Notes: a model not told the origin generated them from the letters alone. A stretch of 52,355 bases of DNA, filler included, from Jimgerdemannia flammicorona (GCA_003990765.1; 2 parts of 2 records of this genome joined end to end with filler, not necessarily neighbours in it), one strand, 5' to 3'. Positions 2,770 to 48,952 are shown, numbered from the whole stretch's first letter. Program-made: numbers and translations.

Positions 2770-2801
2770 ATGATGGGATTGCTTTTTCAACATTATTCCT
2801 T

Positions 2802-20027: not shown

Positions 20028-20043
20028 TATAGATATATTTGCT
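20028..20043 (+). repeat. Target-site duplication of LINE E (partner 25829-25844)
   Basis: TATAGATATATTTGCT is identical at 20028-20043 and 25829-25844 (the last T overlaps the poly(T)). Confidence 0.95.
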
Positions 20044-23000: not shown

Positions 23001-25828
23001 CCTCCTTTTCCCAGTCCACCCACAAATCCCCATCCTCCAACAAAGAAGAATTGAGTCGCCAATGTCCAGATCTGTCTCCACTTCCCCCAAACCTCTCCCC
23101 TCCTAACAGACCCCAGTGATCTGATCACAGACACCAAATCATCTCCAGCATTGTCCAGACATCTGCTCCCCAGCAATCTACCATCAATATCCAGTCAATT
23201 CTTGAGCCCAGCCCTGCCATCCAGTGAGTATAAATTCAATGATTGTCCCAAAACTGTCACCCTGAATCAACCAAAGAACTTAGCCTCTCCACCTCCAACC
23301 AGTCATCCAACCCACCACTCTTGCTCCTCATTTCTCTCTCTCCATCTGTCCTATCCATCCCCTTATTCTATACCATGTTGAAGTCACCCCCCAGGTAGTC
23401 CAACCCCACATCGCCTAAGACACCCACCTCTTTCAAACTACGAATCCAATCCACCCATTCCCCTCTCTCTGCCAGGTAGTAACATGACCCAACTGTCAAT
23501 GGGCTCTATCCAGGCCTCTTCCACACTCCCCACACCAACTGAGACCCCCAATGTCCAATGTCCCCAATGTCCTCCATCCCTTTCTGAATAAGGATACCCA
23601 CCCTCCCTGTCCATACCACAGCCCCCCCCTATTCCTTAGTCCAATCCTGTAAGTCCACATCTACCTCATAACAGACATCCTGCAACAAGAAGAGATCTGC
23701 ATCCAGTCCCTTTAGTCATCCAAATATGTACTTCCACCTAGCCGCCCCCCACAACCCATTCACATTCAAAGAGAATATTCTAGTTGTACTGTTCATATTG
23801 AAAAAATGTTTGAATTTGAGATCCCAGCCTAGTACTCTATACTCATCTCATCCTCAGCCAGATCCAAGTGCCGCTCTGCTTCCAAGTCACTCTCTGCAAC
23901 AGCCTGAGCATCCAATGCCTCCAAGATTTTCTGACATTCCACCCTATCCACCACCTCCATCTCCAACCAGTAGTCTGTGCAGACTGCCCTCCACTTCTCC
24001 AATCCCTTCCTTGAGCCCCACAAATATGCTGTCCAGTCATTCACAATTCTCCTAAGTTCCTCCTCCTGCTGATCATCGACTTGGTATTTAACTGATTCTA
24101 AAAGAACTGCTAGGATCTCATTCCTCACCTTCCTCAGTACCTCCTCACCCTGAAGGATTTCCTCCCAATACCTCTCTTCCATAACCCAGAAGTTCTCTCC
24201 CCCCAGCTCCTCTGCTACTACCCCTTCCAGAGTCTTCCACAGCCACTTCTCCTCATCCACCACCTCCGCCACCCCCTGGGCAACCTGACCACCCCCCACC
24301 TCTGGGTCCACCAAAGCACTCCTCCTCACTGACTCATCCCACTCCTCATCTGGTATATCCAGTAACTCCTCCTCCCCCCCTGCCCCATCTGGAACACTGT
24401 ACTGAGGGTGTACTCCTTCACTAATTTCTGTATCTGCCTCCACACTGCCTACCCTCTCCTCTCTCAATCCATCCTGTGCCCCACCTTGGGCCATCTCACT
24501 TCCCCCCACCCAGGCACTCTCCCACAATCCTGCCTTCTCATCCCCTGTACCACTGCCTGCCCCACCACTGCCCAACTTCACCAGCAGCTCCTTCTGGATT
24601 TTTCTCCCCTATATCTTCTCCCAGGTTACTCAATCCATCCTGACCCTCTTTCCATCAATGACTTCCATCACCATCCTGGCCTCATACTCCTTCCAAGCCA
24701 ATCTCCTCCTCTTGACTGCTTCTTCCAGATCCTCCAAAGCCTCAAGTAGATCTTTCTCCTCCTCCAGAGTCCCCTTCACCCTCATGACCTTGCACTCTAC
24801 TGGTTCCCACTTCAGAGTTGCCAGCCAGTCCCTCATCTTCCCCATGTTCTCCTTTCCAGCCAGCCTCACCCGGACATTAATGTCACCAGTCTGGAGTTCC
24901 ATATCCTCCCAGACCTTGAACCTGATATCCACAATCTCCCCATACTCCTTGACTGCCCCCACAATCAACTCCTTAGCCCTCTCTCTTGACACCATAGGAA
25001 GATCTAATACCATTAACTGTACCACTCAGGGGTCCCAGTGCATATACCTGGCCATAGGGACCACAACCCCACCCACTGTTACCCCCTTCTCCATGGCCAC
25101 CAGCAGTGCCTCTTCTTTCTCAAACCCCACCTTGACCCCTTCTTTCCTCTTCAAAAACTTCACTGATGCTGCCTCTTTCACCTTCTGTACCATCAGCCCC
25201 AAGATCATCCTCACAGTCACCACCAAGCCTCTGAAACATATTGTGATGGTAAATTCTGATCTCTATTTCCTGAGTAATGGTGCCAACACCATCCTGTCAC
25301 CCCATCTGCCAGGTCCCTGGGCCTTGAGCCCACCCCCTGTCCCAAACCAGCCACCACTATCACATCTGGATTTTTGCCAGATTCCCAGTCACAGCTCCAT
25401 CAATAGTCACATCTCCAGCCCCTACTCCCCCCTCTCTCCTACCACTGGACACTCCTCTGGGCACTCCTCCCAGTCCCCCAGCAGTAGCTATCGATGCCTT
25501 CCCCAGACCCAGCCAACCATCCAGACTAGAGGCCATTCTCTCCATCTTATTCTTATCAGCAAAGGTCAACCTCTCCCCTCCTTGCTGCCTCAGGCTCCCC
25601 TCCCTCCACCACCAGAGCCTCAGCCAGCCATCAAAGCCCCTGACATCCCCAAACCATCTCCCCTCCTCTCCACTTGCTGCCAGCCAAAGGCACCACTTCC
25701 CCCCTGGCCAGTACTCTCACCAGTTCGATCATTGCCATCTATGTTGATAGTTGTCTATTACCAAAAACATTGTAAAAAGTATTGTCTGAGTCTTGTATCA
25801 TCTGAATGTTACTGGTGAAAGGTTGGCA
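20043..25828 (-). mobile_element. LINE copy E: full-length, nested in D, inactivated (ORF1 ~25742-23829 with ATG->ATA; ORF2 23796-~20140)
   Basis: Poly(T) 20043-20066. RT segment 21733-22596 (LDQEKAYDRV, GVPQGDPLSP). EN NILFECEW-region reads LNVNGL/LLQDV on the minus strand near 23680-23790. Conserved 5' motif CCTTTCACCAGTAACATTCAG. Perfect TSD. Confidence 0.96.
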
Positions 25829-26130
25829 TATAGATATATTTGCTACCACCAGCTATATAATCCAAGAGTTCTAGCATAAATAATGAGTTATAGAAATTAC
25901 TATCTTTTCTACTATCACATCTTTCTTTAATACTCTCAATATTAACTCCTTCTTCTTGAATTTCACCTCTATTCCCTCCAGCCTCTTAAAGAATTTTACT
26001 AAGACAATCTCTTTTACCTCCTAGATCAGTAGCCCCAGAACTATCCTTAGTATAACTACCAAGCCCCAGAAGCACAATATGATAGCAAATTCAGACATCA
26101 ATTTCTTAAGTAATGGTACTGTCATCAGAC

Positions 26131-26230
26131 NNNNNNNNNNNNNNNNNNNNNNNNNNNNNNNNNNNNNNNNNNNNTTAATTAATTAANNNNNNNNNNNNNN
26201 NNNNNNNNNNNNNNNNNNNNNNNNNNNNNN
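26131..26230. other. Artificial assembly linker (44 N + TTAATTAATTAA + 44 N)
   Basis: A six-frame stop linker centred in an N run, total 100 nt. Sequence composition changes abruptly across it. Confidence 0.97.
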
Positions 26231-26530
26231 CCTCCGCAATATAGTAACAACAATTTGCATGCTCAGGATAGGTATACCAATCATCCAAATCAACAAGTAG
26301 ATTCAATCCAACCGATGCAATACGGTCACGCCAACAAGCCTGATCAACCAGACAACAGCCCCGCTCCCCGGGGTGATCTTCACCGGCGTACTGGAGACTA
26401 TCAGGCCGGGTTTAGCCAAAGCGCTTCCACGAATGAGCCGAGGAACAGTTATTACGACACACCTAGCGATGAATTGCAGTCACCGCACGAAATTGATGTG
26501 GGGACTGTAGGAACATGGGGAAATAAATAG
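26231..26530 (+). CDS. 3' end of a probable host protein-coding gene (polar, low-complexity C-terminus; product unknown), 5'-truncated by the gap
   Basis: Frame is open from the first base after the gap for 99 codons to TAG (PPQYSNNN...EIDVGTVGTWGNK*). CpG content is normal, unlike every repeat in the window. No family recognised. Confidence 0.6.
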   Translation, partial: PPQYSNNNLHAQDRYTNHPNQQVDSIQPMQYGHANKPDQPDNSPAPRGDLHRRTGDYQAGFSQSASTNEPRNSYYDTPSDELQSPHEIDVGTVGTWGNK

Positions 26531-27941
26531 TGATGAAAGGTTGCTAATTAAAAATATATAGTCATCTTTCCAATAATAATCGGATCCGCGATTAATACAT
26601 TAATTGGCGGTGTATTGTAGTACGATGAGTGGCATGAGATGCGCAACGGGCAACGGGGCGCTATGACGCAGTGGGACAAATATGAAGGGCAACAGTGATG
26701 GGCAATAAGAATTATTGGTATGTGATGTCCAACCTTTGTACAAAGGCTGCAAATATAATGTGGCGATGAAACCTGATGGGGATACTTACGAGGGACGAAA
26801 TCCCACCCCCCCCCCTTTTTTTTTTCGATGCCCATGGGAATTTACCCGGACCATTTCTTGATTACTGTGCAGCATCCATTCTTACAGGGAAACCTTCCTC
26901 CTAACGTTTCGCCGCACCTCGAATCTTTCGTCATCACTTCTGTATGGCCTCTCATCTATAATACGCATCCTCCAAGACCTCGGTAAATATGTACCACAAC
27001 AAGCACCTGAGTCAGCTGGGAGTGGACAGGAAGTAGTTTATCTTATGTTTGCTGGACAAACACCTGTCCCTCTTGGCCTCCCAGTGTGACCACCTAACCC
27101 ACACCTGTCTGGTGTGCAAGGATTTCATTCGAGTTCATGAACAAAGCATGGTTGAAAGTTGTGATGTGATGTTGACAAGCAGCACAGGCCCCATGCCATA
27201 TCTGTGACTCAACCAACTTCCACACTCACCCACACAAAGCCATGCAAAATAAAAGTACATGTCACAATTTCTCCCATAAGGTTTTGGTATCAGACAGCAT
27301 AGACTGTGGAAAAGACATTGAGGGAAGGAGGAGGTGGTGAAGAATTTTGTGGCCAAGTGAGCCCAATGAGTAGCTATTGGTAGAGATACGAACAACTCTG
27401 ATGAACTTTTAATCTCATGCTAATGGACTTTATACTCTGCACCATCACAATAATGAATCTACACTAGCCAACTCAGTCCTCAAGATCTGTTCATCTTCGA
27501 CAATGCTTGAACATTATTATTATACATTCTTGCCAGAGATTGTGCGGCCCTCAATACCCTCCCACAGACCTGTCTATCTTCATGCTCCTCATCATCTCTG
27601 ATGACTGCCAAGTTCCCCTGTCCTCATCACCACTCCTCATGCCCTCACCTGTTCCTTCAGACTCCATCTCTACTCTGAGAATCAATCTCAATGACCTCCT
27701 CTTCACTCCATATGAGCCACATATATTGATGTTGGGGAGGCTTCCATTTATATGGGCTTTGTTGGTGATAGAAGTAATGGAAATAGTATGAGGTAATCTT
27801 TTTTTTTTTTGGAATATGATGATGAAATCATGTATGGCAAAGAGCTCATGAATAGCAAGACAGCAATGATCTAGAAAAATTCTGTCATATCTGAAACCCC
27901 ACCCTATGAACCAATTTCTCATCGAAGCCTTCGCACACTAC

Positions 27942-28026
27942 TGTGATGAGTGAATACTACAGTATAGCCAAGATGACATACAAAGAACACATAGTATAGT
28001 TACCCTACATAGTTACCCATATACAC
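27942..28026 (+). repeat. LTR stub of element X (partner 39517-39603)
   Basis: ~85 bp direct repeat starting with TG. Differences from the partner are mostly C->T/G->A. Confidence 0.75.
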
Positions 28027-28056
28027 TATGGTGGTAATCTTTTGACTGGGGTTGTT

Positions 28057-28470
28057 GGTTGATCCAAACCCTTTCTTGTCATGATCTATCTGAGAGAGCT
28101 CAGAGACTTCTTCAATAGTGAGATCTTGACAGATTTCTTCAATAATTTCCTGGGCAATTCTTTGGCCTGCTTTGACTTCAAATGAGGTGTCTTCAAAATT
28201 TTGTAAGATGATATAGATTTCACTAGTAAATCCTTGGTCAACTACTCCTCCTCTTAGCCCAATGTTGAATTCTTTGACCAGGCTACTTCATTCAATAAGA
28301 TGGATATATATTTCTTTGGGGGCTTATATTGCAATTCCAGTACATACTATAGTATTGGTACTTGGTGAAATAGTGAGGTCTTGGCTACTACAGAGGTCAT
28401 ATCCTACATCAGTAGAATGGGCCTTAGTGGAGATAGTAGCCTTATATAATATCTTCTACACTTTGATGAT
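28057..28470 (-). pseudogene. dut: dUTPase (trimeric family) of element Y
   Basis: Manual translation shows all five motifs: VGYDL, IE*SSL, GGVVDQGFTSEI, GQRIAQ, KKGFGST. Confidence 0.92.
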
Positions 28471-30428
28471 ATTCTTAAGATTCTTCTTTCCTGGACCTTC
28501 TCCAATGACTGTGATGTTCTAGTTACTGGGTTTGTCTAATCTGTTTCTCTTCTCAGAGTATCTGACTGAGATGTATCCTACCTTCCTATAAATGAAGTAC
28601 AATCCTTTTTTATAAAGTTGCTTCTTTTTATCCTCAGTAGAGAATCTTGGTCCTCTGGAGTTTCACTTCTTTTAATTATTTCTTTGATCATTTCTTTGAT
28701 CATTCTTTTGATCATTCCTCTTGGTAGGATTTCTTTTATCTTGGTTATTCTTCTTATGTTCTAGATTTCATAGGGCCTATATAGTAAGGATTTTACAGAC
28801 TCTTCTTTGTACTTGGGCAAAGTATTATAAGTAGTGAGGACATCTTAGGGAGAGGTCTTGTTCCTTAATCTTCTGGGTGAGTCAGTCTGATAGGGCCAAA
28901 GAGATGGTTAGCTCTGATACTATTAATGACCAAATTGTTTTTCTTCAACAGTTTTGAGGTAGGCATCTATCCTTATGACAAAGGTTTCTAGGTCCTCCTC
29001 ACCATTCTTGTAGAACTTCATCTGGACTAGTTTGTTTCAAGTTTCTTATATATAGGCTACATTTCAGAATTTGGTCAGTAGTAGGGCCTTGAGTTCTGAG
29101 CCTATTGCATAATCATCTCAATCTGGTCTAGTATGGCCAAGTACTTGGCCTGCAACTTGAGAATAGTCTTCCCAGATTACTGGGTATTCTTCTATAGTAT
29201 ATATACCAGAACTTAGTTGCTGTTTTAGTAAAGAATATTATTATTGTTTCCACTTATACTGCTAATATAGCAAATAGCTGGTAGAGAGTATTGTCTTGAT
29301 TATTGGTGAGTATTCCTATAGGTACTTAGTTATTATTCTATTAGTTTGCTCAGTATTCTATATCAACTATATTGATAAAGATTTCAATATTACTGTTTTT
29401 TCCACTAAAAGTGGATATTTGCAAGGTTTGGGTTAGTTTGTTCTGTTAAGCAATTCATCCTACTATATCTACTAATGTGGTTAGCTAGATAGTCAGTGCT
29501 GCAATATTGATATCTACTATTATATTGATTATTAGTAGTAGTCCTATAAGGGTAGATTCTCTTGAAGATTATTCTATCTAATAGGATTATAGTGCTGTAT
29601 AACTTGGGGTTACTTGATTCTCAGATATTAGATCAAAAAGTCCTGTAAGAGATAGTAAACCAAACCTCTATATATGTGGCTAGATTGGTTCTAAGGTCTG
29701 GTCTTCTTGATCTGTGGGTTCTTGGTAAATTCCTAGGCCTGCTGTTTCTTATTGGCTATTATCAGACTAATATCCTATAGAGTCTTCATCTGACTCCCTT
29801 TCCTGATGAGATAGTGCATCCTCATACTAACTAGGTCCTTCAAAGAGGATATCTACTTCTGGTAGGATAAAGGGACCTGCTTCTTGATTAGCAGTAAGAG
29901 ATAGATGGTCTGCTTACTTGTTCTCATATCTTGTTATAGTAAAGATATAGTAAACAACTAGTCTGTAGTAGAGGGAGGTCCTGGTAGGAGTATGATGATA
30001 TCTGTCAGATGCAATCTACTTGGCAGCTGCTTCTCTTATTACAGGGGGTGAGATATAATCTAGAAATTCCTAGATAGCTATAACAGTAGATTCTTGAGTC
30101 CTGGTGGTTCCAAGATGACTATAGAGAAGAGTGTAGAACCTATAGTGGCTGACTATATTTCTAAGACCTGGGTGAAAAGTTCTAAAGGCCTGATATAGAT
30201 CTTTATATGTCTGATCAATTACAAGGTAATGAGTCCCTGGGTCTGTAGTTTTCTAGTACCACCTGGTCCTAATGACAAGGGCTTGTCTGACTCTAGTTTG
30301 GGAATTTGTTTCTAGAGAATCTACAGTTAGTTCTGGGGATTACTCCTGTCCAAGGTTGGCCTTATTCCAACTTCTCAGAAGTATGTTCTTGATATCTTCT
30401 TGGCTTGATAATTCTACTACTACTAAGT

Positions 30429-31200
30429 TATAATAACTCTTATTTCTACCCCTCTCTTATTCTTTGAATAATTAGGGAAATAAGATATTACTTAGGAACT
30501 TAGTACACAATGTGTACCAAGAAGCCTTCAGTATGAGGAAGTGCTTGCTTGAAAGTAGTTATAGCAGCAATACCCTTCTTATTAACTATAGTTATAAGGA
30601 ACTTATTCTTTATTGTACACAGACTAAATTCACTTTGAAATTCAGATTTAATGGGTTTACTTAAGTCTTTGGGATTTATATACTAGTCTCAGTTCTGGCA
30701 AAAGTTAGCTAGGCTTCTGGAGTTTAGTCAGAAATACTAAAGTTACTTAGATATTATTACTAAGACTCAGGGAAATATATATGTGTAGAGAAAACTTGAT
30801 TCTTATATTAAGGACTGAATTAAAACTGTCTTTATTTCAAATAGAACTGAGGAGTATTTATACAAGTTGGTCTACAATTTCTGACTAAATATAAGTAACT
30901 AATTTGGTAACTATAGTGAGGTTTGTAATTGTAATCTTTGTCAGATAGTTTGTAATCAGGAATACTTTGTGATTAAGATCTCTATTGCTATAGTACTAAT
31001 TGCTGGAAATAAGCTAGATATTATTTTTGCATCATTTGTATCATTCATTATATTTATTATTTATATATTATATATAACACTCAATTGATGATAATATCAT
31101 TGTCAGGTTATATAATTACTCATTATATATATATTATATCTCATCTATTCATTCTATTACACTATTTATCTTATATATAGATATCTTTAAGATAGTCTCA
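30429..31200 (-). repeat. 5' LTR of element Y (~770 bp, strongly TA-mutated)
   Basis: Bounded by the PBS on one side and by the abrupt start of X RNase H sequence (GAVLI*EG) at 31201. It ends ...CTCA, which is TG on the minus strand. No second copy is in the window. Confidence 0.65.
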
Positions 31201-32224
31201 GAGCAGTTCTAATCTAAGAAGGATCTGATCAGTAGTACTATATAATAGCTTATACAAGCAGAGCTACTAATAAGTAGTAGGCTAACTAGAGTAATATCAA
31301 ATTAAAATATCTTATAGTTATATAGATAGTTACTCTGTTTAAGTATTACTTTATTAAAAAAAGATTCACTCTCATAACTAATCATATTACTCTCAAATAG
31401 CTATTCTATTATAAAAAATCTACTGAAATTCTTATCTACTAGATTCTAATCCTATAAGATTACAAAATTACTATTATCTATAAAGCAGAGAAAGTCTACA
31501 ACAATATCAATGTACTTTCTTATCAAATCTAATAAACTAAAAGAAGAGTGTATTCTAGAATTACATTTAAAAGAAAATTTCTGTAACTACTAAGGAGCAA
31601 GAAGACCTCATCTGATAAGAACATCAGAAGACCTACTAAGAATAAACAAATATAGAAGAGAAGCTTCAAAGAACATACCAATACTGACCCAATCCTAGAG
31701 CATAAGTCAGAGATATATGTACTATAAAGATATAATATCTACTAGAAGTATTAAAAAAAGAAAAAATCATCAAGCACTATTATAACTAATTATACTATCT
31801 ATTCATATCTTCTAAAGATAGAGAGTAGATATTATCAGACTTCTGTCAGTTATATTAAGAAGAAGCAAATATATCTTAATATTTATAAAATATCTGATCA
31901 AATGATCTAAAGCTTTCTCAATAGAAACTACTGATACCTTGACTATTATTAGCCTCTTTTATAGTCTTATACTTAGATATGGACCTCTAGAAGAACTAAT
32001 CTCTAAATATAATATAGAATTTATTAATAAGTTAGTTATAACTTATATATAAATTCACAAGATTTATCTAAAAAAGATCATATCACACTACTCTCAAATC
32101 AATAGAATGATAGAGTAAATAAACCAGACTATTAAAAAAGAACTTATCTGAGTCAATTCTACCAACTGAGATCTCTGCTTATCTGTAATTCTATGGAAAA
32201 TTTAGAATATCTCTATAATCTTTA
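31201..32224 (+). pseudogene. Element X pol relic: RNase H and integrase core
   Basis: IIAYTSRATNK, LFKYYFIKKRFTLITNHITLK* (RNase H). RYGPLEELISKYNIEFIN and SQINRMIE*INQTIK are mutated integrase D..E motifs. Confidence 0.85.
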
Positions 32225-33706
32225 TGTAAGAGGGTTGCTTTTAGAGTAACTGTTATATAGTTCTGAAAGAGTTTTCTGGAAGTTCTGGATATTCTGGAAG
32301 ACTATTTTCTTATGGTCAAGATTAATTTCATATAGAGTATGTCCTCTATGCTTATTGATTTCAAGATTGAGTTGATGTCTCAACCAAAGTCCTTTTTGGA
32401 CTAGTTCTGGATGTTCAGGATTTTCTGTATTTCAGAAAGTTCAAGAAACTAAGACCAGCTTAGTTGAATTGGCATATCACTGCAGACAATACCCAATTAG
32501 GAAATTTCATGATGGGGTTAGGAGTGGGACCTAACAGGGAGTGAATTTACTTAAGAGTGGTTTGTGGGTTATTAAATAGGTTTATTCACTATTCATGATA
32601 TTGCTATACTAGGAGTAGTTGGATGAAGGGATATTATAGGGAAGGGCTCAGGAGTTATGTTTGGATTGTTCAAGTCTGAGATTCTGAGGTCTGGGAGAGG
32701 GGATATTTATACTAGTGAGGGGCTATCTGGACTATACTAAATATGGATATAGCACTACATGCCTTGCTGAGTCGGAATGCAGTCATATAGTACAAGAGTG
32801 ATCTGATATGTCAAGAGATCATCTGACTGCTGAGTCAGTTCACAGTCATATTGTACAAGACTAATCTAACTATACTATGACTGCTAAGCTATTTATAGGT
32901 TTAGACACTGTCTGGGTAGTCTTTGATAATATTACCATTGATGACATCATCTCTGACAAAGTCTGAGACTTCTGACATCATCAGTTTCAAGGTGTCGTCA
33001 CTTCTATCTCTTGCAAGATTAAGGCTATCCTTGGTGACAGTGGTTGTACAAGGATAACAGGTCTTGGTTCTCTTTTTTTTTTAGTCTGCTGGTGCATTTG
33101 CGAGGACTGGCCATTCTTGTCTAGGGTGAGGGCTCCCAATGTCATGGCTGGGGGTTCAAACCTCTTGGAAATGATATTTTCTATAATCCGAGGCAATTTC
33201 TAGTAGTAATATCTATCACATAGATAGCTTGAGATTGGTTTTGACATTGTTGGCTTTCTTGAGTTCAGATGAAGCATCCATCACTCTCCAATGGAGGTGA
33301 CACAGATAGAGTGAATAGAGTTGTTCAAATGCATTTTGCTTCTGCTAAGTAATAAGATCTTATATAGTCATAGTGTATCTTGGTCTTGAGTTGATAAGTG
33401 CAGTTCATGAACCTTTTAGTAGATGAGATAGGGTTTTTCTTGTCTTAATTTGAGTTTGGTACTTTTGGTTTTCTTTTGTAATAGTACAGTACACCAAACT
33501 AGTTATAGTGGTTCAGAGTTAGTCTTATGGTTGTAGTACTTCTTCTAGTATTCTTGTATCTTAGCAGTGGGTTCTCATGCTTGCTGGCATATTTCGTGTA
33601 ACCAGATGATCTCTTCAGTAACTTGTTTTATAGTCTCGCATGTGGTTTCCAAATTAGTTCTGAGGATGCCATGCAATTTTGGTGGCTTAGAGGTTGTGTG
33701 CTTACA
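32225..33706 (-). repeat. 3' LTR of element Z
   Basis: Collinear direct repeat of 37101-38582. Terminal inverted TGTAAG/CTTACA. Confidence 0.96.
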
Positions 33707-33707
33707 A

Positions 33708-33720
33708 CTCTCCCCTTCTT
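33708..33720 (-). other. Polypurine tract of element Z
   Basis: AAGAAGGGGAGAG on the minus strand, 1 nt upstream of the 3' LTR. Confidence 0.88.
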
Positions 33721-34664
33721 AGCTTTCGATATCCTCATCAGGGCCTTCTAATTTATTCTGGTATTATTGTACCATTTGGATGGTTCTTGTGGCTGTGTTT
33801 GTTGAGGATTTGTTTAACTTTGTATTCTTCTTGGTCATTAATAATGACAGGTGCAGGTGGTTCTATAGTTTGGTTCAGAAATGTGTCTCGGAATTTCTAG
33901 AGTAGTGGTCTGACATGGCTGTCAACTTTGGAAAAGTCTTCTTCAGTATTCTTGGGTTCTCCTTTGGATGGATGGATGGAGATTGCAAAGAGAGGGCATT
34001 TCTTGGTCAATTTCTTGAGTTATAGCTTATTGATGTGGGTGATCTTTGGTCCAGGGTCACTAGAGTTGAGTGGGTCCTTTTCACCTTACAGTTTGAAGTT
34101 GTGGTGTCCTTTCTTGATGGTCAGAGAATGGTTTACCCAATTGATCATGGGGTTCTCTTGTTTTAACCATGGAGTTCCAAGGATGATTTCATTATCAGGG
34201 AGTGGTACAATCTGGAGGGTAATATGTACTCAGTAGTCACCAATTCGGAAGAGTAGATTGCAGACTTCCTTGCTAATAACATGTGAGGTTCCATCAGCTG
34301 TGGCGACTGCCTGAGTTTGTTGTACCAGAGAGGTGAAGACCTTGAGTCTGTTGGCTGTTTCTTCATTGATGAAGTTGCCTGAGGCACCACTGTCTATCAT
34401 AATCTTGACAGGTGCTCAGTTGACAAAAGCTTTGAGTATAAGCAGTTTGTCTGATCCAATGGTAGTGATTTTGGTTATAGGAGCTTTCCTTCTGTTGGTT
34501 CTTCTTTGAGCCAGTTCATTGATACAAGAGAAGCAATTATCAATCATTTGGGAAGAGTATATTCCAATATCATGAGGGCATCAGCCACTTGGTACATATC
34601 CGTCTTCAATCTTCTTGTAGAATTGTTCTTCTTTGCTCATGGTAGGTTGGGCTGGGGCCTTGTT

Positions 34665-35070
34665 TGATGAGCCAAATCCTTTGAATCCTCAGATGGTAGG
34701 TAGTAGTTCAGGGATTTCCTTGACTATCAGAGTTGACTCAATTTTTTCAAATAGAATCTGGGCAATGCAGAAACCAATGGGGATCTTAAAGGATATCCAA
34801 CTGTGGTTTTGGATGAGGACAATAATTTCGCCTATATAATCCTCATCAATGACTCCTCCTTCTACTGAGAGTTCTTTCAATGCTAGACTGCTGTGACAGC
34901 ATATTCTTCCAACATGTCCTTCAGGGATTTGGATGCTGATTCCTGTATAGACTTGCTTGACTTCTCAGTTGGAAACTGTAGTTTCTTTGGCTGCATACAG
35001 ATCATATCCAGCTGCTTTTTGACTTCCTTTGGTTGGGGCCTTGGCAGTTTGCCTTAACTTGACAAAGTCT
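34665..35070 (-). pseudogene. dut: dUTPase (trimeric family) of element Z
   Basis: FVKL...APTKGSQKAAGYDLYA, GRICCHSSLA, GGVIDEDYIGEI, IAQIL, *GFKGFGSS. Confidence 0.96.
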
Positions 35071-37084
35071 AGTGTTCTAGTGGTCAGGTTGTTGAGGTAG
35101 TGCAGAGTGGTAACAGTTGCTCATGTTGCTGTTCAGGGTTTTTGGTTAGGGCAGGCACTGGCTATGTGTCCTGTCTTTTGGCAATAGAAGCATGCTCCGC
35201 TTCTTCGAAGTTCATTCCTTTCTTCTTCAGTGAGTTTCTTGAAGGTACTCAGCTGGGTTGGTTCATGATTTCTGGGTGTCCATGAGGTGAATGTGGAGGG
35301 AGCTCGAGATGCTTCATGCTTGGGTTCTTCTTTCTTGGTCCAAGTCTTTTCCTTATTGTTGAATTGTCTTCAAGGCAGAATTGGTCCAGCTGTTAGGATT
35401 TGCTTGACCATAGTCTTGATTCTTACCAGGCACCATTGTTGGTGATCACAACCAACTGGGTGACCTTGTTCTCAGATTTTTCTAGTAAGCCATTCAGGCA
35501 GGGCATCGAATAAATGGTCTGCTCTTGTACCATTTCATGCTTCATTATTGGCAATATATCCTAGGCCAACAGTGTTCAGGAGTGACTCAAGTTTTGTACA
35601 GAAGGTTTCGAATTCTTCTTTGCCATATACATCAAATTTGAGGTTGTGGAGTTTTACTCGAGATTCGGCGATCATGGTTTTGCTACAGTATTGGGCAATC
35701 ATGAGTTGTTTGAGTCCAGGGGCTGCAGGGTGGGCTCCATATCCTGGGGTATTGTTTGCTGCATTTTGGGTAACTACTACAGGTTGGGTGTCCCATGTGA
35801 GGGGTTTTTTTAGGAAGGGTTCACCACCATTCTTCAGCAGGTCCTTGGAAGAATGTAACAACTTGGCAGACATAGGCTATAGTTGTAGCGAAAAGTTGTT
35901 CCAGAGTGTGGTCTTGATTGTTTGTCAGAATGCGGTCAGCAACTTGCTCATTGGTCCATTGGTTGGCTTCAAAGTTGGTGTCAACTATACTAATGAAGCT
36001 TTGGACTTCTTGTACAGTACCATTGAAGGTAGGTAGGCTCAGATTTTTTGTAGGTCAGGTCTGTTCAGCTAGAGCAGTAATGGTTGCTACCATTATTGCT
36101 ACTTGGGCTGTGAGGTCTAAAATCTGTTGGTTCACCATGTTGTTTACTGGAGGTGGTTGGACTGCTGATAGTAGTATTACTGATACTACTTGAGGTACTG
36201 GTGTAGAGTGTGAGAGTGTTCTTTGGGTCTGTGTAAGTTGCTGGAGTAGTAGTTATGGGTCTGGAGTGAGGGCTTGATAGATAACTGTTTGTTGTTGTGT
36301 AGGTGTGTTCTGGCCTGATGGAGGTGCATCTCCTTCGGTGGTGTATCCGAGATCGAATTCACTGAGATACTCCTCCTTCTCTTCAGTTTGGTCTCTGTGT
36401 AATTGGGTTTGCTTGGTGTCGAAGTAGACGGAATCAGTTATATATCTGATTTCAGATAGACTTAATTCAAAGTCAAGTTCTGGTTTGGTATTGGTTTCAG
36501 ATTCGGGTAGAGCTGTAGTAGGGCCTGCTTTGGGTTTCAGGTCAGGTAGTTGATAAAGGATTTCTCTTGCTTCTTCTTTAAGAATATGGTGGGCCTTACT
36601 GTTCTGGAATTGGTAGTATAGTGTGGTCTTGGTCCTGGTGTGGTAAAAATTGGTAGAGTTGAGCTACTTGGCTACAGAGACCTGGGCTTCATGAAAAACT
36701 AAGGCTAGAAAGACTGCTGCTGGTTATCCTAGGTCACTCGGATTTGTGAAGCTGACAAAACTCTTGTTGAGAAGAGTAAAGAAGGCTTCTATAAGACCTT
36801 CTTCATCTTGACTTACTGGGTGTAGTGTAAGGAGTTCAGTGAATAGGATTTTGCCTATTTGCTGATTTAATTGGAGTACTTCTTTCTTTGAATGAAGTTT
36901 GTCCCACTTGTTGCAGATGTGGAGGTCAAATTGTCCTTATATGTCAGGTTTAATTCTAATCAGATTGTCAGATGGTTCAGGATAAATTCCAGTTCAGAGG
37001 TTAGGTTTTATACCAACTTGTAGGAATTTGCAGAGGGGTTTGTAGCAGAGTGAGGAAGCATCTTGAAGCAGAATTGGATTGTAA

Positions 37085-37097
37085 ACTGCTGCTACTA
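37085..37097 (-). other. Primer-binding site of element Z (mutated TGGTAGCAGCAG, initiator tRNA-Met-like)
   Basis: ACT-TAGTAGCAGCAGT immediately after the 5' LTR on the minus strand. TAG for TGG fits the G->A decay. The tRNA identity is inferred. Confidence 0.7.
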
Positions 37098-37100
37098 AGT

Positions 37101-38582
37101 TGTAAGAGGGTTGCTTTTTAGGGTAACCATTACGTAGTTCTGGAAGGGTTTTCTGGAAGTTCTGGATATTCTGGAAGACTGTTTTCTTATGGTCAAGATC
37201 AATTTCATATGGAGTATATCCTCTATGCTTATTGATTTCAAGATTGGGTTGACATCTCAACTAAAGTCCTTTTTGGACTAGTTCTGGATATTCAGAATTT
37301 TCCATATTTCAGGAAATTCAAGAAACTAAGACCAGCTTAGTTGAATTGGCATATCACTGCAGACAATACCCAATTAGGAAATTTCATGATGGAGTTAGGA
37401 GTGGGACCTAACAGGGAGCAGATTTACTTAAAAGTGGTTTGTGAGTTATTAAATAAGTTTATTCACTATTTATGATATTGCTATACTAGGAGTAGTTGGG
37501 TGAAGGGATATTGTAGTAAAGGGCTCAGAAGTTGTGTTTAGATTGTTCAAGTCTGAGATTCTGATGTCTGGGGGAGGGGGTATTTATACTAGTGATGGGT
37601 TATCTAGACTATGCTAAATATAGATATAGCACTAAGTACCTTGCTGAGTCAGAATGCAGTCACATAGTACAAGAATGATCTGATATATCAAGAGATCGTC
37701 TGACTACTGAGTTAGTTCACAGTCACATCATACAAGACTAATCTAACTATACTATGACTGCTAAGCTATTTATAGGTTTAGACACTATCTGGGTAGTCTT
37801 CGATGACATCACCATCGATGACATCATCTCTGACAAAGTCTGAGACTTCTGACATCATTAGTTTCAAGGTGTCATTACTTCTATCTCTTGCAAGATTAAG
37901 GCTATCCTTGGTGGCGGTAGTTGTACAAGGATAACAGGTCTTGGTTCTCTTTTTTTTTTGGTCTGCTGGCACATTTGCAAGGACTGGCCATTCTCGTCTA
38001 GGGCAAGGGCTCCCAATGTTGCAGCTGGGGATTTGAATCTCTTGGAAATATATTTTCTATAATCTGAGGCAATTTCTAGTAGTAATATCTGTCACATAGA
38101 TGGCTTGAGATTGGTTTTGATATTGTCAGCTTTCTTGAGTTCAGATGAAGCATCTATCACTCTCTAATAGAGGTGATACAGATAGAGCGAATGGAGTTGT
38201 TCAAATGTATTTTGCTTCTGCTAAGTAATGAGGTCTTGTATAGTTACAGTGTATCTTGGTCTTGAGTTGATAAGTGTAGCTCATAAACCTTTTGGTAGAT
38301 GAGATAGGGTTCTTCTTGTCTCAATTTGAGTTTGGTACTTTCAGTTTCCTTTTGTAATAGTACAGTATACCAAACTAGTTATAGTGGTTCAGAGTTAGTC
38401 TTATGGTTGTAGTACTTCTTCTAGTATTCTTGTATCTTAGTGGTGGGTTCTCGTACTTGCTGGCATATTTTGTATAACCAGATAATCTCTTCAGTAACTT
38501 GTTTTGTAGTCTCACATGTGGTTTCCAAATTAGTTCTGAGGATGCCATGCAATTTTGGTGGCTTGGAGGTTGTGTGCTTATA
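37101..38582 (-). repeat. 5' LTR of element Z
   Basis: Direct repeat of 32225-33706. The terminal TG has mutated to TA. Confidence 0.96.
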
Positions 38583-38960
38583 CTTTACTAAACAAAAGCT
38601 ATTCAAAATAATGTTCACTAAAAAAGCTAGAACTGCTGACTATAAAAACCTTGGATAACTCCTAAAAAAGACAGAATAATTATAAAATCAAACCTGAGCT
38701 CAGATAATCAAGACTCAAGAAAAGTAGAAGAAATATTTTAATCAAAAATAGAAGGATCAAAAGTTCAAGATTGGAGATCAAGTTCTTGTTTAGAGAAATA
38801 TAATTAAAATAAATTTGCTGCCAAATTAGAATCCAAATGAGAAGAATTTATATCTTATGTATAATATCAAAGAAATAAATATCTATATAAAAAGTATAAA
38901 TAGATATACCCTAAGGATCTCAGTCTATATCAATTGTCTCAAGAAATATCTACTATCTAT
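38583..38960 (+). pseudogene. Element X integrase C-terminal relic, continuing after the Z insertion
   Basis: FKIMFTKKAR, KFKIGDQVLV, KFAAKLESK*E (GPY/F module region). It resumes at the CTTTA target duplication. Confidence 0.8.
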
Positions 38961-39617
38961 ACTATAAACCAGAGAATTAATCATTATCTCCAGATCCTCA
39001 TTCTTAGCTTCTTCCAGACCCTGCTAGTACTCCTAACCCCAGTTCTGTAAAATCAATGAGATCTATCTTTAGTAGATTTAGATATACTAAGAGAATTTCA
39101 TTTTAGCAGAATATCTACTGCAAATCTACTAACTATAGATCTACTATATAATTAGTAAACAACTATAAGACCTCTCAGCTTCAGAATAGACCTATATCTA
39201 CAACATTACTAATCTATCTAGAAAAAATACTACTACTGCTGACAGACTTTATATAATCTATAAATGAAATATTACAGTACTAATATAAACCTAATTCTCT
39301 CTAAGTAATATATAAAAAATAAACATAGCTACCTATCTAAGTATTATTAGCTAGATTGAAGTTCTGTTCTCTGAGAAAGAAAATAAACCTCTAGAATAGA
39401 GTAATCTAGATATAAAAGAAGATAATAATATAGATATTAATGTAGAAGATACTTATAATTATTAGAATAATTATTAAAAAACAGTCTGAGATAGACTATT
39501 CTTTAGTAGAGACTAATATAATGAGCAAATACTATAGTATAGCCAAGATAACATACATATAAAGAATATATAATATAATTACTTTATATAATTACTTATA
39601 TATTGTAATGGTGACTC

Positions 39618-40712
39618 CAGAATAATGACATCAGCATAGAAGACAGTCTTTTCTTGCAAATCACCAGATTAGAGCATAAGAAGATTATACAGCATACATA
39701 TGAGATGAGTAATGATGACCAACTGTGAGTCATTGTGACCATAGTTGAGTATCTTGAGGAATATAAAAGAAGGATCAAGGAACTGCAATAGCAGCAACCA
39801 ACAAAACCCACCAATTCCAAAATAGCTCAAAGACTTACTATAAATGAAATGCCTGCTATTCACCAAATCTCAAGATCAAGGAACTATCAAGATATCTCAG
39901 TTGAAGAAAGAATGTTCTAAGACATCAGAAGAGCTATGAGAACTCACTCAAGAAGGACTCCTAGTGTCAACCTGGGTACTGCAGATCCTTATTACTTTAT
40001 CCTCTACTACTGTGAAATGGAAACAAGAATCACTATTGCTACTGAATGCCTCCAAATATGGCAGAAGTATAAAATAGGAAACCTCCTCTGCTGGGAGTTC
40101 CTACAGGTCAGCACTCAAGAGCTACAAGATACCACTCCCATAGATATATGTGAAACAAGAACAGTTAAGAAGATCCATCAGATCTTCAGGCATACACCAT
40201 GATCGATCCTCAACTTGGAGTATGTTAGAGTCTCAGATTTCAGAGATCTGTCATCCTGCTGTATCAATGAACTAGAAGCCAGAGTGGCTACAGAAGCCCA
40301 GTCCACTATTACTCTCAATAGTGATGAAGTAGAAGACTTCTAGTATTCCATTCTCCAGGACAACCCAGATCAATTCCTGTAAGGATTGATCTCAGTATTC
40401 CAAGGCCCAAGTATCCAGGTTAGACCTCTCTAAGACCCCACATTTGTTTCCTATTTTGTAGAAGAGAACCTCATAGACTAGAGAGCTCCAGATCTCCTTA
40501 TTCCTACCACTGCCACTACCAAATGTGATGATGTCATCAGCAATGACATCATCCCATGTGATATATGCAAAGCATATGAAGTATGCAAAACACATGACCT
40601 ATGTAATGATAATAATGAGACAGATGAGATGTTTGTGGACCTCATCTCCTTCAAAGACATCCTGACCTCTGATGAGGATAAAGCCCCTATGGTCTTGAAC
40701 ATTCTGCTCTAA
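39618..40712 (+). pseudogene. ~365-codon single-frame ORF relic inside the LTR of W, product unknown
   Basis: One frame (containing ORF 39936-40202) reads through with only stops explicable as CAA/CAG/CGA/TGG transitions and no frameshift. Confidence 0.7.
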
Positions 40713-40724
40713 GTTCCTTGGTTA

Positions 40725-40848
40725 TACTGAATAATGCCAGCACTGGTATTTTGATATAATACTGAATTATACCAGCATTGGTATTTTGATATAACACTGA
40801 ATTATACTAGTACCAATATTTTGATATAATACTGAATTATACCAGCAT
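40725..40848. repeat. 35-bp tandem repeat (~3.5 units) in the LTR of W
   Basis: TACTGAATTATACCAGCATTGGTATTTTGATATAA units at 40725, 40760, 40795 and 40830. Confidence 0.92.
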
Positions 40849-41218
40849 CCTGAATCTATACAACCATCAGTGCTGACCCTGGAACTTAGCAGTTTTTCCT
40901 GTCCTAGTATTTTATTTTAGTTATTGGAATTTATATTTAGCTTTATATCTTAGCAACCATTGAATTATATTTTGTATAAATATCCCTCTTATTTCTTCTG
41001 AAATAAAGTCAGTTCCTCTCAGTGCAATATATACACTTCCTTGCAAGCAATCTAAGAGATAACAAGACAGTTTAAAGATAAGAAGTTTGAGGACTATAAG
41101 ACCTTGAAAAGGCACTCCAATAAGAACTTGCTTATAATAAACTTGAGTTAGTCTAAGAGATATACCTTGAAGAGAATCTGGCATATTTGAAGGACTCAGC
41201 AACCACTATATGACAACT

Positions 41219-41233
41219 TGGTGCCCATTGACT
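41219..41233 (+). other. Primer-binding site of element W
   Basis: TGGTGCCCATTGACT starts 3 nt after the LTR-terminal CA and precedes gag. The tRNA was not identified. Confidence 0.7.
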
Positions 41234-41271
41234 GGTGATTCAAGATGAATCCCTCACTTTCAAGCTAAAAA

Positions 41272-43068
41272 ATGAACAACCCCCACAACAACTACCCTGA
41301 CTATAAGAGTCACCCCTGCAAGAATTCAAGACAAGATGGAAATGTATCCCCCCACATTCTATAGATATACTACTGAAGAGTCAATCCTGATCTTCATTGA
41401 AGACTTTGAACAATTCGCCACCATATAAGCCCTTGGTGTAGATGCACAATTGGCCCTTCTACCAGTCAGCCTCAGAAGACCTACCAGGGATAAGTTTAAT
41501 GCAGTCACTATTGCTGATAATGGTGTAGCCAAACTTGCCAATATGAAGGCCTTCCTCAGAACAACATACTATACTGAAGAGATCAAGCAAGCTCTCAAGA
41601 ATCAACTCAATACTATCTGCCAGAGACTTAGTGAAGATCCCAACTCATTCTATACTCGAATCTGCCATCAGATTATCTTGGCTAGCTATGATGATACCCT
41701 CAAGGAACAAATAGTAGATTCAACCTTCCTCAAAGGAGTTCACCCTAAAATTGCCCTAGCAATCTGGTTGACCCCAGCTGCACTGACCCTTGATCAGAAA
41801 GTGGTCTTTGCACAGAGATATTGAACTGCCAGACACCCTGCCAAACATTCAATGGAGAAAATAACTGGCATCAAGATGGAGCCATCAAAGTCAACTAGTA
41901 TCATACCTGCTACAGTTATAAACAGACAACTAACCCCATCTACCCCCAAGGCAGCCAAAGCTGACCCAGTAGAGAAACTTACCAAGCAGTTCACTGAGAT
42001 GACTGCACACCTTGGTGATATTGTTAGAGAAGTCCAAAGTGCCAACAGGAGACCAGTACAGAGATTTGTAGCTGCTATAGAAGAATGTAATATTACATGC
42101 TTCAGATGTAGAGAAAAAGGCCACTATGCAAAGAATTGCATGACCAAAACAAGATACAAAGTCCAACCAAGCAATGTTAGCAGAACCAGAGAACAAACTA
42201 ATGCAGTAGTCATTGAGGAGATTAGTGATACTGATGATGAAGAATACTATGAGGAGCTTGAATTCTACCTTGCTACTGAAGGTACCAGAACCCAGTCCAA
42301 GCCCTATGATAAGAAGAGCAACAGCAAGCCAGTTGGAAGACCAAAGAAGACCCCAGCTATCACTATTCAAAGTAAGACTCAACCTGAGAAGATTGATCAA
42401 GACATGAAGTTAGATGAAGCTGTCTACCAAATCATTGAAGGCACTACTCCAGTCTCAGGAGAAAGCAAAAGCAAGAAGGAACAGAAGCTGTACAAGACCA
42501 AGATCCACCAGTATGATATCTACAAGGACCTCAAGGAACAGAAGGTCAATGCTACTTTTGGACAGCTAGCCAAAGTCCCCACCTTCAGACAGCAGTTGAG
42601 AGTAGGACTTATAACTACTACCAAGAATCAAGAATACAAGATTGTAGAAGCTCACAATGCACAGGAAGAATCTGAAAACTTAGGTGAAGAATCTGAAGAC
42701 TAGTGCAAGACATCAGCCTATACTTTATATCAGATCGAAGACTATATCTTTGATGCCATCATTGATACTGGTGCTAGAGGATACCTCATGAGCAAGAAGG
42801 CAATTGACCACCTAGGTTGGGACATTGAAGAGTCCACCAAGATGGTCTATATCACAGCAGATGGTATATGAGCTACCCCCTTTGGCAAAATCCAAGAAGT
42901 CTCCATTAAGATAGGAGGAGCTATCATCCCAGTAGACATGATTGTTACAAGCACCACCAACTATGACATCCTTATTGACAACCAATGGCTTCACAAGGCC
43001 AAGGCTATCATTGATCTCAATGCCCAGAAGATGCAGATCAATTATAGAGGAAGAAAGGTATAAGTCTC
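41272..43068 (+). pseudogene. Element W gag - aspartic protease relic
   Basis: PPTF..FIEDFEQF, QRLSEDPNSFYTRI, FLKGV (Gag). CFRCREKGHYAKNC at 42098-42139. AIIDTGA at ~42755-42775. YDILIDNQWL. A few in-frame stops. Confidence 0.92.
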
Positions 43069-43150
43069 TTTTTTTTTTTTTTTTTTTTATAGTCCCTTGG
43101 ACTCCGTCTTTATTACCAGTCTATGAATAAGTATACAATATTACCACCCA

Positions 43151-46807: not shown

Positions 46808-46837
46808 AATAAAATACTGTTTGTTCTCAATCAATCC

Positions 46838-48868: not shown

Positions 48869-48952
48869 AATACTAGTAGCTTTTCTCCAGAAACTGTGTC
48901 GAAAGTGTTGCCAAAGGATCGTGTAACCTGAATGTTACTGGAGAAAGGATGC

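What the first reader, a model, noticed from the sequence alone, without database searches (positions are those of the whole stretch)
29800..37260. Unrecognised conserved domain upstream of Gag in both dUTPase elements, with the frame starting inside the LTR
Seen: in Z, ~370 codons in frame with the Gag start MVNQQ (36138) extend back through the PBS into the 5' LTR (ORF 36994-37260), broken only by transition-type stops. The matching region of Y (~29800-30400) shares ordered motifs: QVGIKPNL/EVGIRPTL, LLTLHP/FRTFHP, FFTLL/FYTLL, AK*LNSTNFYHTRTKTTLYY/AK*IASDRYHHTPTRTSLYY (36613-36670; 29965-30025) and KAGP/EAGP. Protein-level conservation between elements with unrelated LTRs implies selection. 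I recognise no family. Candidate roles (matrix-like, targeting or anti-silencing accessory domain) are speculation.
Basis: partly seen in the sequence, partly recalled or inferred. Interest (0 to 1): 0.78.

Follow-up and report, generated by a model that had tools for sequence, protein, structure and literature searches.

The report
Extra coding region before retrotransposon Gag
Two decayed Ty3/gypsy-type retrotransposons that carry a dUTPase share about 300 protein-coding codons in front of their capsid gene, most likely a fast-evolving N-terminal extension of Gag with one conserved 25-residue motif and no known relatives: a modest curiosity, not a new kind of system.

Summary
The core observation holds. 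In element Z (minus strand) the 320 codons between the 5' LTR and the Met of MVNQQ (36138) are coding-like in the Gag frame. They have 5 stops against 18 and 21 in the other frames. G counts at codon positions 1/2/3 are 80/28/24, and codon usage resembles the rest of the element. Element Y shows the same periodicity (79/38/33).

Y and Z are significantly alike there only in that frame (local score 79 against 36±6 for shuffles). Nearly all of that comes from one 25-residue block (Z 36678-36610, Y 30030-29962). The other listed motifs are not significant alone, though they lie weakly on the same diagonal. The region is the least conserved part of the polyprotein.

Nothing matched in Pfam, PDB sequences, 1.84 billion representative proteins or prokaryotic genome contigs. 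The structure prediction failed (pLDDT 38).

A start inside the LTR is not shown. There is no ancestral in-frame ATG, and a 1-nt difference between the two LTRs decides the frame.

Best reading: a lineage-specific N-terminal extension of Gag (hydrophobic region plus acidic linker) ahead of capsid, zinc knuckle, dUTPase and protease. In position it resembles retroviral MA/p12 or the Cer1 Gag N-domain. Interest is low to moderate.

The parts
37101..38580 (-). Z 5' LTR (1480 bp). A TATA-like GTATAAATACC lies at 37589-37579. The tail 37305-37101 is open in the Gag frame apart from one stop.
   Evidence: Repeat pair with 32225-33704, 91.6% identity. Tail alignment. TATA position.
37086..37100 (-). 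Z primer-binding-site-like sequence directly after the LTR end (...TTACA). It is read through by the frame.
   Evidence: The same 15-nt string recurs in Y with 2 transition differences, directly after Y's ...TTATA. No tRNA in the window to test it against.
36529..37098 (-). Z N-region of the extension (190 codons, 36% ILVFMWY), coding-like in the Gag frame.
36610..36678 (-). Z conserved block (SVAK*LNSTNFYHTRTKTTLYYQF), the only strongly conserved piece.
36148..36528 (-). Z acidic, polar linker (18 D/E against 6 K/R in the 110 residues counted). Coding-like, but not significantly similar to Y.
35800..36147 (-). Z Gag core part A. It holds the Met at 36138, a hydrophobic helix-like stretch and the LPTFNGT... 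capsid-type start.
   Evidence: 35% identity to Y over 116 gapless residues; codon-position identity .58/.61/.36.
35130..35846 (-). Z Gag core part B in the +1 frame, with a CCHC zinc knuckle at about 35195-35145.
34665..35045 (-). Z dUTPase domain.
   Evidence: Pfam PF00692, 1.7e-28.
34104..34466 (-). Z retroviral-type aspartyl protease. The element then breaks off near 33879, where reverse transcriptase should begin.
   Evidence: Pfam PF13975/PF08284. Alignment with sister copy P0003 ends there.
32225..33704 (-). Z 3' LTR.
30414..30428 (-). Y primer-binding-site-like sequence after the LTR end (...TTATA at 30429).
29530..30426 (-). Y extension (299 codons, 15 stops) in the frame of Y's Gag core.
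29962..30030 (-). Y conserved block (AAAK*IASDRYHHTPTRTSLYYRL).
28057..29529 (-). Y Gag core (part A 29529-29182, part B 29225-28947 in another frame), a decayed zinc-knuckle remnant at 28599-28558, and dUTPase at 28440-28057. Y is truncated after the dUTPase.

Best explanation
The stretch is the N-terminal part of the Gag polyprotein of a lineage of Ty3/gypsy-type (Metaviridae) retrotransposons. Their order is: extension, capsid-type core, CCHC zinc knuckle, dUTPase, protease (then RT, as the sister copy P0003 shows).

The extension has a hydrophobic N-region of about 190 residues holding one conserved 25-residue motif. An acidic linker of about 110-130 residues follows.

Shown:
- It is, or was, translated in the Gag frame in both copies.
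- It is homologous between them at the same distance from the primer-binding site and from the capsid core.
- It evolves much faster than the rest.

Inferred:
- It is made as one chain with Gag from the genomic RNA, starting at or just after the LTR/primer-site border.
- It plays the part that MA/p12 plays in retroviruses, or the large N-domain in Cer1 Gag. That is, it places or times particle assembly or docks a host factor, and the protease probably cuts it off.
- The conserved motif would then be a docking or cleavage site.

Both copies are dead. Z lost RT to integrase, and Y is truncated and heavily transition-mutated.
For: Coding in the Gag frame:
- Stop counts, G periodicity and codon usage.
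- Periodicity holds through the linker (28/8/6).
- It also holds through the 38 codons between the last stop and the Met at 36138 (7/1/2, p=0.015, no stop). There is therefore no non-coding gap before Gag.

Homology between the copies:
- The protein similarity is frame-specific.
- Within the block, codon positions 1 and 2 are more alike than position 3 (.60/.64/.48), as in the Gag core (.58/.61/.36).
- Spacing is kept. From primer site to block is 140 codons in Z and 132 in Y. The distance from the block to the Gag core differs by 30 nt, a multiple of 3.
- Alignment A1 spans 200 columns with 4 gaps.

Extra to a normal Gag:
- From the Met at 36138 to the zinc knuckle is 314 codons.
- That is comparable with a third element in the window, whose Gag starts 5 residues before its PTF motif and runs 254 codons to its knuckle.
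- So the 320 upstream codons come on top of a full-size Gag.

Precedent: in the passages read of PMC10309623, most Ty3/gypsy Gag proteins begin with the capsid domain, but Cer1 Gag has an N-domain larger than retroviral MA.

No RNA-structure signal in the block (z +1.35 and -0.21).
Against: - Only two decayed copies were available, and no intact one.
- No intact start codon exists upstream of 36138 in Z, and none at all in Y's frame.
- The Met at 36138 lines up with ATA in Y. It may be a conserved initiator, which would make the upstream part a separate reading frame.
- One Z stop (36255) lies between the extension and that Met.
- Y's own stop count is not significant.
- The function is inferred from position and composition only. 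No fold could be predicted (pLDDT 38.1) and there is no similarity to MA or any Gag family.
Confidence: 0.55

Rival explanations
1. A separate accessory reading frame lies upstream of gag and ends at a stop shortly before the Gag initiator (MVNQQ). It would be expressed by leaky scanning, reinitiation or a shorter transcript, like the small ORFs upstream of gag in MDG1-group elements or the additional ORFs of plant elements.
For: - The Met at 36138 aligns with ATA in Y, where every in-frame ATG has been lost.
- From that Met on, Gag is already of normal length.
- Z has a stop at 36255, and Y has three stops 17-23 codons before the aligned codon.
- Accessory ORFs upstream of gag are known (passages of 10.1101/2025.03.14.642691, and of PMC7264820).
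Against: - The same frame as Gag is used in both elements.
- Coding periodicity continues without a break up to the Met.
- With 5 stops in 320 codons, one falling in the last 39 codons is expected about half the time (my arithmetic).
- The MDG1 ORFs have about 70-110 codons, not about 300.
Confidence: 0.22
2. The reading frame begins inside U5 of the 5' LTR and reads through the primer-binding site. From recall, Ty1 of yeast is arranged this way; no call checked that.
For: - The frame is open through the primer site in the same phase in both Z and Y.
- In Z it is open for 53 codons into the LTR. The stop at 37263 is a sense codon in the 3' LTR, which would give 68 codons back to an in-frame ATG at 37305.
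- G periodicity leans the right way from about 37190 (9/2/6, 10/5/2 in 45-codon windows).
Against: - The ATG at 37305 reads ACG in the 3' LTR, a CpG site in DNA where CpG is almost gone. The ATG is therefore more likely the derived state.
- The LTRs differ by one base in an A-run near 37120. With the 3' LTR version the tail is out of frame and closed.
- Periodicity in the tail is not significant (13/7/9, p=0.33).
- A second frame of the tail has only 1 stop, and the tail holds repeated TCCAGAA-like words. An open stretch there is cheap.
- Y has in-frame stops at 30474 and 30459.
- Y-Z similarity does not reach upstream of about Z 37030.
Confidence: 0.13
3. A non-coding leader carries a conserved cis-acting element (packaging, dimerisation or priming signal), and the frame is open by chance in A-rich, G-poor DNA.
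For: - Only about 70 nt are clearly conserved. The next best stretch is around the primer site (76% over 34 nt).
- A small hairpin (GTTGG...CYAAC) is kept in both, at Z 37017-37000 and Y 30371-30355.
Against: - Strong three-base periodicity in both elements.
- Stops 5 against 18 and 21.
- Codon usage like the element's own genes.
- Similarity is seen only in one frame pair of nine.
- No unusual folding energy.
Confidence: 0.05
4. The shared in-frame TAG inside the conserved block is a real stop that is read through, so the block would be a read-through signal dividing two products.
For: Both elements have TAG at the same codon, inside the best conserved stretch.
Against: - Protein similarity runs on both sides in one frame.
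- TpG-to-TpA and CpA-to-TpA changes are the commonest differences between the two LTRs (76 of 118 transitions). Parallel decay of one Trp or Gln codon is therefore likely.
- There is no stable structure downstream.
Confidence: 0.03

Closest known systems
N-terminal domain of Cer1 Gag (C. elegans Ty3/gypsy element; PMC10309623, passages read)
   Same: A large region ahead of the capsid domain in a Ty3/gypsy Gag. It has no likeness to retroviral MA, and its proposed role is in placing capsids.
   Different: No sequence relation was tested, because no Cer1 sequence was in hand. Cer1's region is described as a long coiled coil; here no fold could be predicted. Cer1 has no dUTPase in the passages read.
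MA-p12 type N-terminal part of retroviral Gag; betaretroviruses also place a dUTPase between nucleocapsid and protease (the latter point recalled, not from a call)
   Same: Order: N-terminal region, acidic or polar linker, capsid, zinc knuckle, dUTPase, protease.
   Different: No Pfam Gag_MA, Gag_p12 or other Gag family match even at E up to 10. No PDB sequence match (best E 0.36). No N-terminal Met-Gly. The sister copy's reverse transcriptase matches Pfam RVT_1 (PF00078); calling it Ty3/gypsy-type rather than retroviral is my reading of its motifs, not a call result.
dUTPase-bearing fungal Gypsy elements such as PosPlaTy3-3 of Postia placenta (PMC2864245, passages read)
   Same: A dUTPase at the amino end of Pol, next to the protease, in a Gypsy element. 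That paper also draws 'additional ORFs of unknown function' in some fungal elements.
   Different: Those elements are chromoviruses, and no chromodomain was detected here. Their Gag N-termini are not described in the passages read. The supplement with the structures is an old .doc and was not read.
sORF1/sORF2 upstream of gag in MDG1-group elements (10.1101/2025.03.14.642691, passages read) and upstream additional ORFs of plant elements (PMC7264820, passages read)
   Same: Extra coding sequence between the 5' LTR and gag, on the sense strand.
   Different: Those are separate short frames of about 70-110 codons. Here about 300 codons lie in frame with Gag, with coding periodicity up to the Gag Met.
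Ty1 of yeast: gag start codon inside the 5' LTR, with the primer site inside the reading frame (recalled, not from a call)
   Same: The frame is open through the primer-binding site in both Y and Z.
   Different: A start codon inside the LTR is not shown here. Ty1 is a copia-type element.

Membership tests
Ty3/gypsy (Metaviridae) LTR retrotransposon | Two long terminal repeats flanking an internal region | tested here: met
   Z: 1480-bp pair, 91.6% identical. Y: only one LTR end seen and the element is truncated.
Ty3/gypsy (Metaviridae) LTR retrotransposon | Gag with CCHC zinc knuckle followed by a retroviral-type aspartyl protease | tested here: met
   Z: zf-CCHC 3.5e-05; PF13975 1.2e-09 and PF08284 2.7e-09. 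Y: only a decayed knuckle remnant, and no protease left.
Ty3/gypsy (Metaviridae) LTR retrotransposon | Reverse transcriptase of the Ty3/gypsy type, followed by RNase H and then integrase | tested here: inconclusive
   Absent from both Z (deleted) and Y (truncated). Sister copy P0003 is 89% identical to Z over 304 residues and continues into an RVT_1 domain. Integrase was not seen anywhere.
Chromovirus (chromodomain-bearing Gypsy) | Chromodomain at the C-terminus of integrase | tested here: not met
   No Pfam match in three frames of 33640-33960, even at E up to 10. An EEYKVKQIL-like remnant is only my reading of the sequence.
Known Gag N-terminal families (retroviral MA, p12, p10, TYA, Retrotrans_gag and the like in Pfam) | Sequence match to the family model | tested here: not met
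   No such family at E up to 10 for either extension. The PDB profile search found nothing below E 0.36.
Known Gag N-terminal families (retroviral MA, p12, p10, TYA, Retrotrans_gag and the like in Pfam) | Fold match | tested here: inconclusive
   AlphaFold2 on the two-row alignment gave mean pLDDT 38.1 and pTM 0.32. No fold search was run on so poor a model.
N-terminal extension of Gag in one chain with capsid (Cer1-like arrangement) | Same reading frame as the capsid core, with no non-coding gap | tested here: met
   Same frame in Z and Y. Periodicity continues to the Met. The length difference between block and core is 30 nt.
N-terminal extension of Gag in one chain with capsid (Cer1-like arrangement) | Uninterrupted frame from a start codon into capsid in an intact copy | not testable with these tools
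   No intact copy was found. Eukaryotic genome DNA is not among the collections.
Separate accessory ORF upstream of gag (MDG1 sORFs, plant upstream aORFs) | Own stop codon before the gag initiator, conserved among copies | tested here: inconclusive
   Stops lie before the aligned Met/Ile in both, but both copies are littered with decay stops.
Ty1-like layout (start codon in the 5' LTR) | In-frame start codon in U5 that is ancestral to both LTRs | tested here: not met
   ATG 37305 reads ACG in the 3' LTR. A 1-nt LTR difference decides the frame.

The most novel reading that the evidence does not exclude
The extension is a selected accessory domain of its own, peculiar to a dUTPase-bearing Metaviridae lineage. 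It is translated from a start within U5 through the primer-binding site (a Ty1-like layout in a Ty3/gypsy element). Its conserved 25-residue motif docks a host factor for targeting or for escape from silencing.
Probability: 0.1. Interest if true: 0.55.

Novelty: new variant of a known kind. Interest (0 to 1): 0.3.

Why it matters
Most Ty3/gypsy Gag proteins begin with the capsid domain (PMC10309623, passages read). A second, unrelated case of a long pre-capsid region would add to the evidence that retrovirus-like N-terminal Gag modules arose more than once. This one sits in an element that also has the nucleocapsid-dUTPase-protease order. If the conserved motif binds a host factor, it could say how such elements choose where to assemble or integrate in a repeat-swollen genome. 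As it stands, the evidence is two dead copies and one short motif, so the practical weight is small.

Tried and rejected
SEARCHES THAT FOUND NOTHING USEFUL
- HMMER search of Z 37260-36400 (stops as X) against 1.84 billion representatives gave one hit at E 2.9e-4. It is a 754-residue tandem-repeat protein matched in 8 weak stretches, judged spurious.
- Word-indexed search of extension plus Gag core, near lengths: 0 of 4744 candidates.
- Z Gag-to-protease frame, longer proteins: 1 of 6086 candidates, a copia-type protein matching the dUTPase only.
- Same query, near lengths: 5 of 8000 scored. Only P0003 is a true relative, and it does not cover the extension.
- Pfam at E up to 10: nothing on either extension, nor on the capsid core.
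- PDB profile searches with A1, A3 and A4: only weak zinc-knuckle hits.
- Prokaryotic genome contigs: 77 pattern matches, none confirmed.
- tblastn of both extensions against the window: no third copy.

OTHER ATTEMPTS
- AlphaFold2 on A1: pLDDT 38.1, so no fold search was made.
The Atlas stayed unchecked.
- Extension as a duplicated capsid or other domain of the element: 10 comparisons, z from -0.7 to 2.2, rejected.
- RNA element in the block or after the primer site: z from +1.35 to -0.81, rejected.

LITERATURE
- Three full-text searches turned up no description of this region. The family has no name to search by, so this is weak evidence.
- E. muscae proteomes are reported as enriched in the same Pfam set, dUTPase plus retropepsins (10.1101/2023.09.13.557621, passages read). 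This is a lead on the kind of host only and was not tested.

NOT SEARCHED


Full report
SETTING

The window is repeat-rich eukaryotic DNA. No tRNA or Rfam family was found. LINE-like elements with an endonuclease and a reverse transcriptase lie at both ends and in the middle, with extreme G/C skew.

Element Z lies on the minus strand between 1480-bp LTRs, 38580-37101 and 33704-32225, 91.6% identical. Its internal part is only 3396 bp. It reads:
- the stretch in question;
- a Gag core;
- a CCHC zinc knuckle;
- a dUTPase (Pfam 1.7e-28);
- an aspartyl protease.

It then breaks off where reverse transcriptase should begin. A database protein, P0003 (537 residues), is 89% identical to Z over 304 residues and continues into a reverse transcriptase.

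Element Y is also on the minus strand. It keeps an LTR end at 30429, the same primer-site-like string, the stretch in question, a Gag core and a dUTPase (7.8e-23). It is cut off near 28050.

Y and Z are distant relatives, about 60% identical in DNA even in the Gag core and dUTPase. Their LTRs cannot be aligned.

IS THE STRETCH CODING?

In Z the 320 codons from the LTR end to the ATG at 36138 hold 5 stops in the Gag frame, against 18 and 21 in the other frames. Base shuffles give 16.5±3.7.

G is concentrated at codon position 1, as in the element's recognised genes:

| Region | G at positions 1/2/3 | p |
|---|---|---|
| Z extension | 80/28/24 | 7e-12 |
| Y extension | 79/38/33 | 2e-7 |

A codon-usage score trained on the Gag-to-protease parts of both elements favours the Gag frame. 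In Z's N-region it is +18.4 against -15.8 and -1.9. In Z's linker it is +9.0 against -47.3 and -14.9. The periodicity persists through the linker and through the 38 codons between the last stop and the Met (7/1/2, p=0.015).

Y alone is a poor witness: 15 stops against 21.5±4.2 expected.

IS IT CONSERVED BETWEEN Y AND Z?

The local protein alignment scores 79 in the Gag frames, against 36.1±5.9 for shuffles (0 of 1000). The other eight frame pairs score 31-37.

Broken down:
- The 25-residue block carries the signal: 60 against 17.9±4.0.
- The 140 residues before it do not beat shuffles in a free local alignment: 26 against 25.7.
- The part after it barely does: z 1.4.

If the diagonal is fixed by the block, the flanks show weak colinear similarity. 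For Z residues 25-80 at offset 9, z is 3.6. For residues 80-140 at offset 8, z is 2.5. A MAFFT alignment runs 200 columns at 23% identity with 4 gaps.

In the block, codon positions 1 and 2 are more alike than position 3 (.60/.64/.48). The Gag core shows the same pattern (.58/.61/.36).

The spacing is kept. The block lies 140 (Z) and 132 (Y) codons after the primer site. The distance from the block to the Gag core differs by 30 nt.

Against the rest of the polyprotein the stretch is poorly conserved:

| Region | z of Y-Z local score |
|---|---|
| N-region of extension | 6.4 |
| Linker | 1.2 |
| Capsid part A | 30 |
| Capsid part B | 19 |
| Zinc-knuckle region | 14 |
| dUTPase | 31 |

The likeness there is at DNA level and coincides with a small hairpin kept in both.

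THE STOPS AND THE DECAY

Of 124 differing columns between Z's LTRs, 118 are transitions. Of those, 76 lie in CpA/TpG contexts. CpG is nearly absent, with observed/expected of 0.16 in Z and 0.0 in Y.

Where P0003 overlaps Z, 7 of 7 Z stops lie opposite Arg or Gln. The stops of the extension are therefore most simply decay. The TAG shared by Y and Z in the block is most simply parallel decay of one Trp or Gln codon.

By the same comparison Z is only about 11% away from a better copy. The failure of database searches is therefore not due to decay of the query.

WHERE DOES THE FRAME BEGIN?

The frame is open through the primer site in the same phase in both elements. In Z it is open for 53 codons into the LTR. 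The stop at 37263 is a sense codon in the 3' LTR, and an in-frame ATG sits at 37305.

Against a start in the LTR:
- That ATG reads ACG in the 3' LTR.
- The two LTRs differ by one base in an A-run beside the LTR end, which decides whether the tail is in frame at all.
- The tail has no significant periodicity (13/7/9).
- The tail is also nearly open in a second frame.
- Y has two in-frame stops just upstream of its primer site.

Both elements have ATA at a shared place, Z 37011 and Y 30365. That place is one base out of Y's present frame. It could be a decayed initiator, but this is conjecture.

The start is unresolved. The coding signal begins about at the LTR/primer-site border.

WHAT IS IT?

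No family matched: Pfam, PDB sequences, 1.84 billion representative proteins, the word-indexed protein set and prokaryotic contigs. It is not a duplicate of another part of the element. The predicted structure was useless.

By composition it has two parts:
- a hydrophobic N-region (36% ILVFMWY);
- an acidic, polar linker (18 D/E against 6 K/R in Z, and similar in Y).

Next comes a hydrophobic helix-like stretch starting at the Met, and then the capsid-type core.

From that Met to the zinc knuckle Z has 314 codons. A third element on the plus strand starts Gag at 41336, five residues before its PTF motif, and has 254 codons to its knuckle. The 320 upstream codons are therefore extra to a full-size Gag.

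The nearest described thing is the large N-domain of Cer1 Gag, set against the rule that Ty3/gypsy Gag begins with capsid. Separate small ORFs upstream of gag exist in MDG1-group and plant elements. dUTPase next to the protease is known in fungal Gypsy elements and in rotifer elements.

VERDICT

This is a real, once-translated, lineage-specific stretch ahead of the capsid core. It is most likely an N-terminal Gag extension (0.55). Less likely it is a separate upstream frame (0.22).

Its only firm conserved feature is a 25-residue motif. Its function is inferred from position alone. A start inside the LTR is not shown. It is a new variant of a known kind, and interest is low to moderate.

Noticed in passing
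Z 35846-35800 and Y 29225-29182 (minus strand): Both elements need the same +1-nt change of frame inside the capsid core. It falls between a conserved FF...W in one frame and a conserved TW(D/E) in the next. The interval is 58 nt in Z and 61 nt in Y, both 1 modulo 3. Z has an A7C4 run there. By my rough estimate, coincident independent indels have about a 4% chance. A homopolymer assembly error or an ancestral feature cannot be told apart with two copies. Y shifts back further on, and Z does not.
   Followed up: partly
Z near 33879 (minus strand): Z lacks everything from the start of reverse transcriptase to near the 3' end of pol. The alignment with sister copy P0003 stops at KFRD(T/I)F, and a short EEYKVKQIL-like remnant follows before the 3' LTR. 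No Pfam chromodomain match.
   Followed up: yes
1-6550, about 20040-25830, 43070-52355: LINE-like elements (Exo_endo_phos plus RVT_1) at about 53% G+C with extreme G/C skew of about ±0.46-0.54 and little A/T skew. Their coding strand is very G-rich and C-poor, the opposite of the A-rich, G-poor LTR elements beside them.
   Followed up: no
Z LTR pair 37101-38580 / 32225-33704; Y 28000-30430; 38600-41800: Decay is almost purely by transitions: 118 of 124 LTR differences, 76 of them in CpA/TpG contexts. CpG is nearly absent (observed/expected 0.16, 0.0 and 0.03). This looks like a RIP-like or methyl-cytosine deamination process.
   Followed up: partly
41336-43000 (plus strand): A third LTR-element Gag-protease without dUTPase. 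Gag starts at Met 41336, five residues before its PTF motif. The CCHC knuckle is at about 42098 and the protease from about 42730. It serves as an in-window example of a Gag without an N-terminal extension.
   Followed up: partly
31194-31463 (plus strand): An RNase H fragment of yet another retroelement (PF17917, 8.9e-09). It lies between Y's LTR region and Z's 3' LTR, on the opposite strand.
   Followed up: no
13463-14229: Tandem repeat with a period of about 256-264 bp, three copies about 75-84% alike.
   Followed up: no
26131-26174 and 26187-26230: Two 44-base runs of N (masked or gap) next to the non-repeat-looking DNA at 26230-28000 that abuts Y's truncated end.
   Followed up: no
Z 37017-37000 and Y 30371-30355 (minus strand): A small hairpin-forming word (GTTGG, 7-8 nt, CYAAC) with an ATA in its loop is kept in both elements. 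It lies 83 nt (Z) and 57 nt (Y) after the start of the primer-site-like string.
   Followed up: partly
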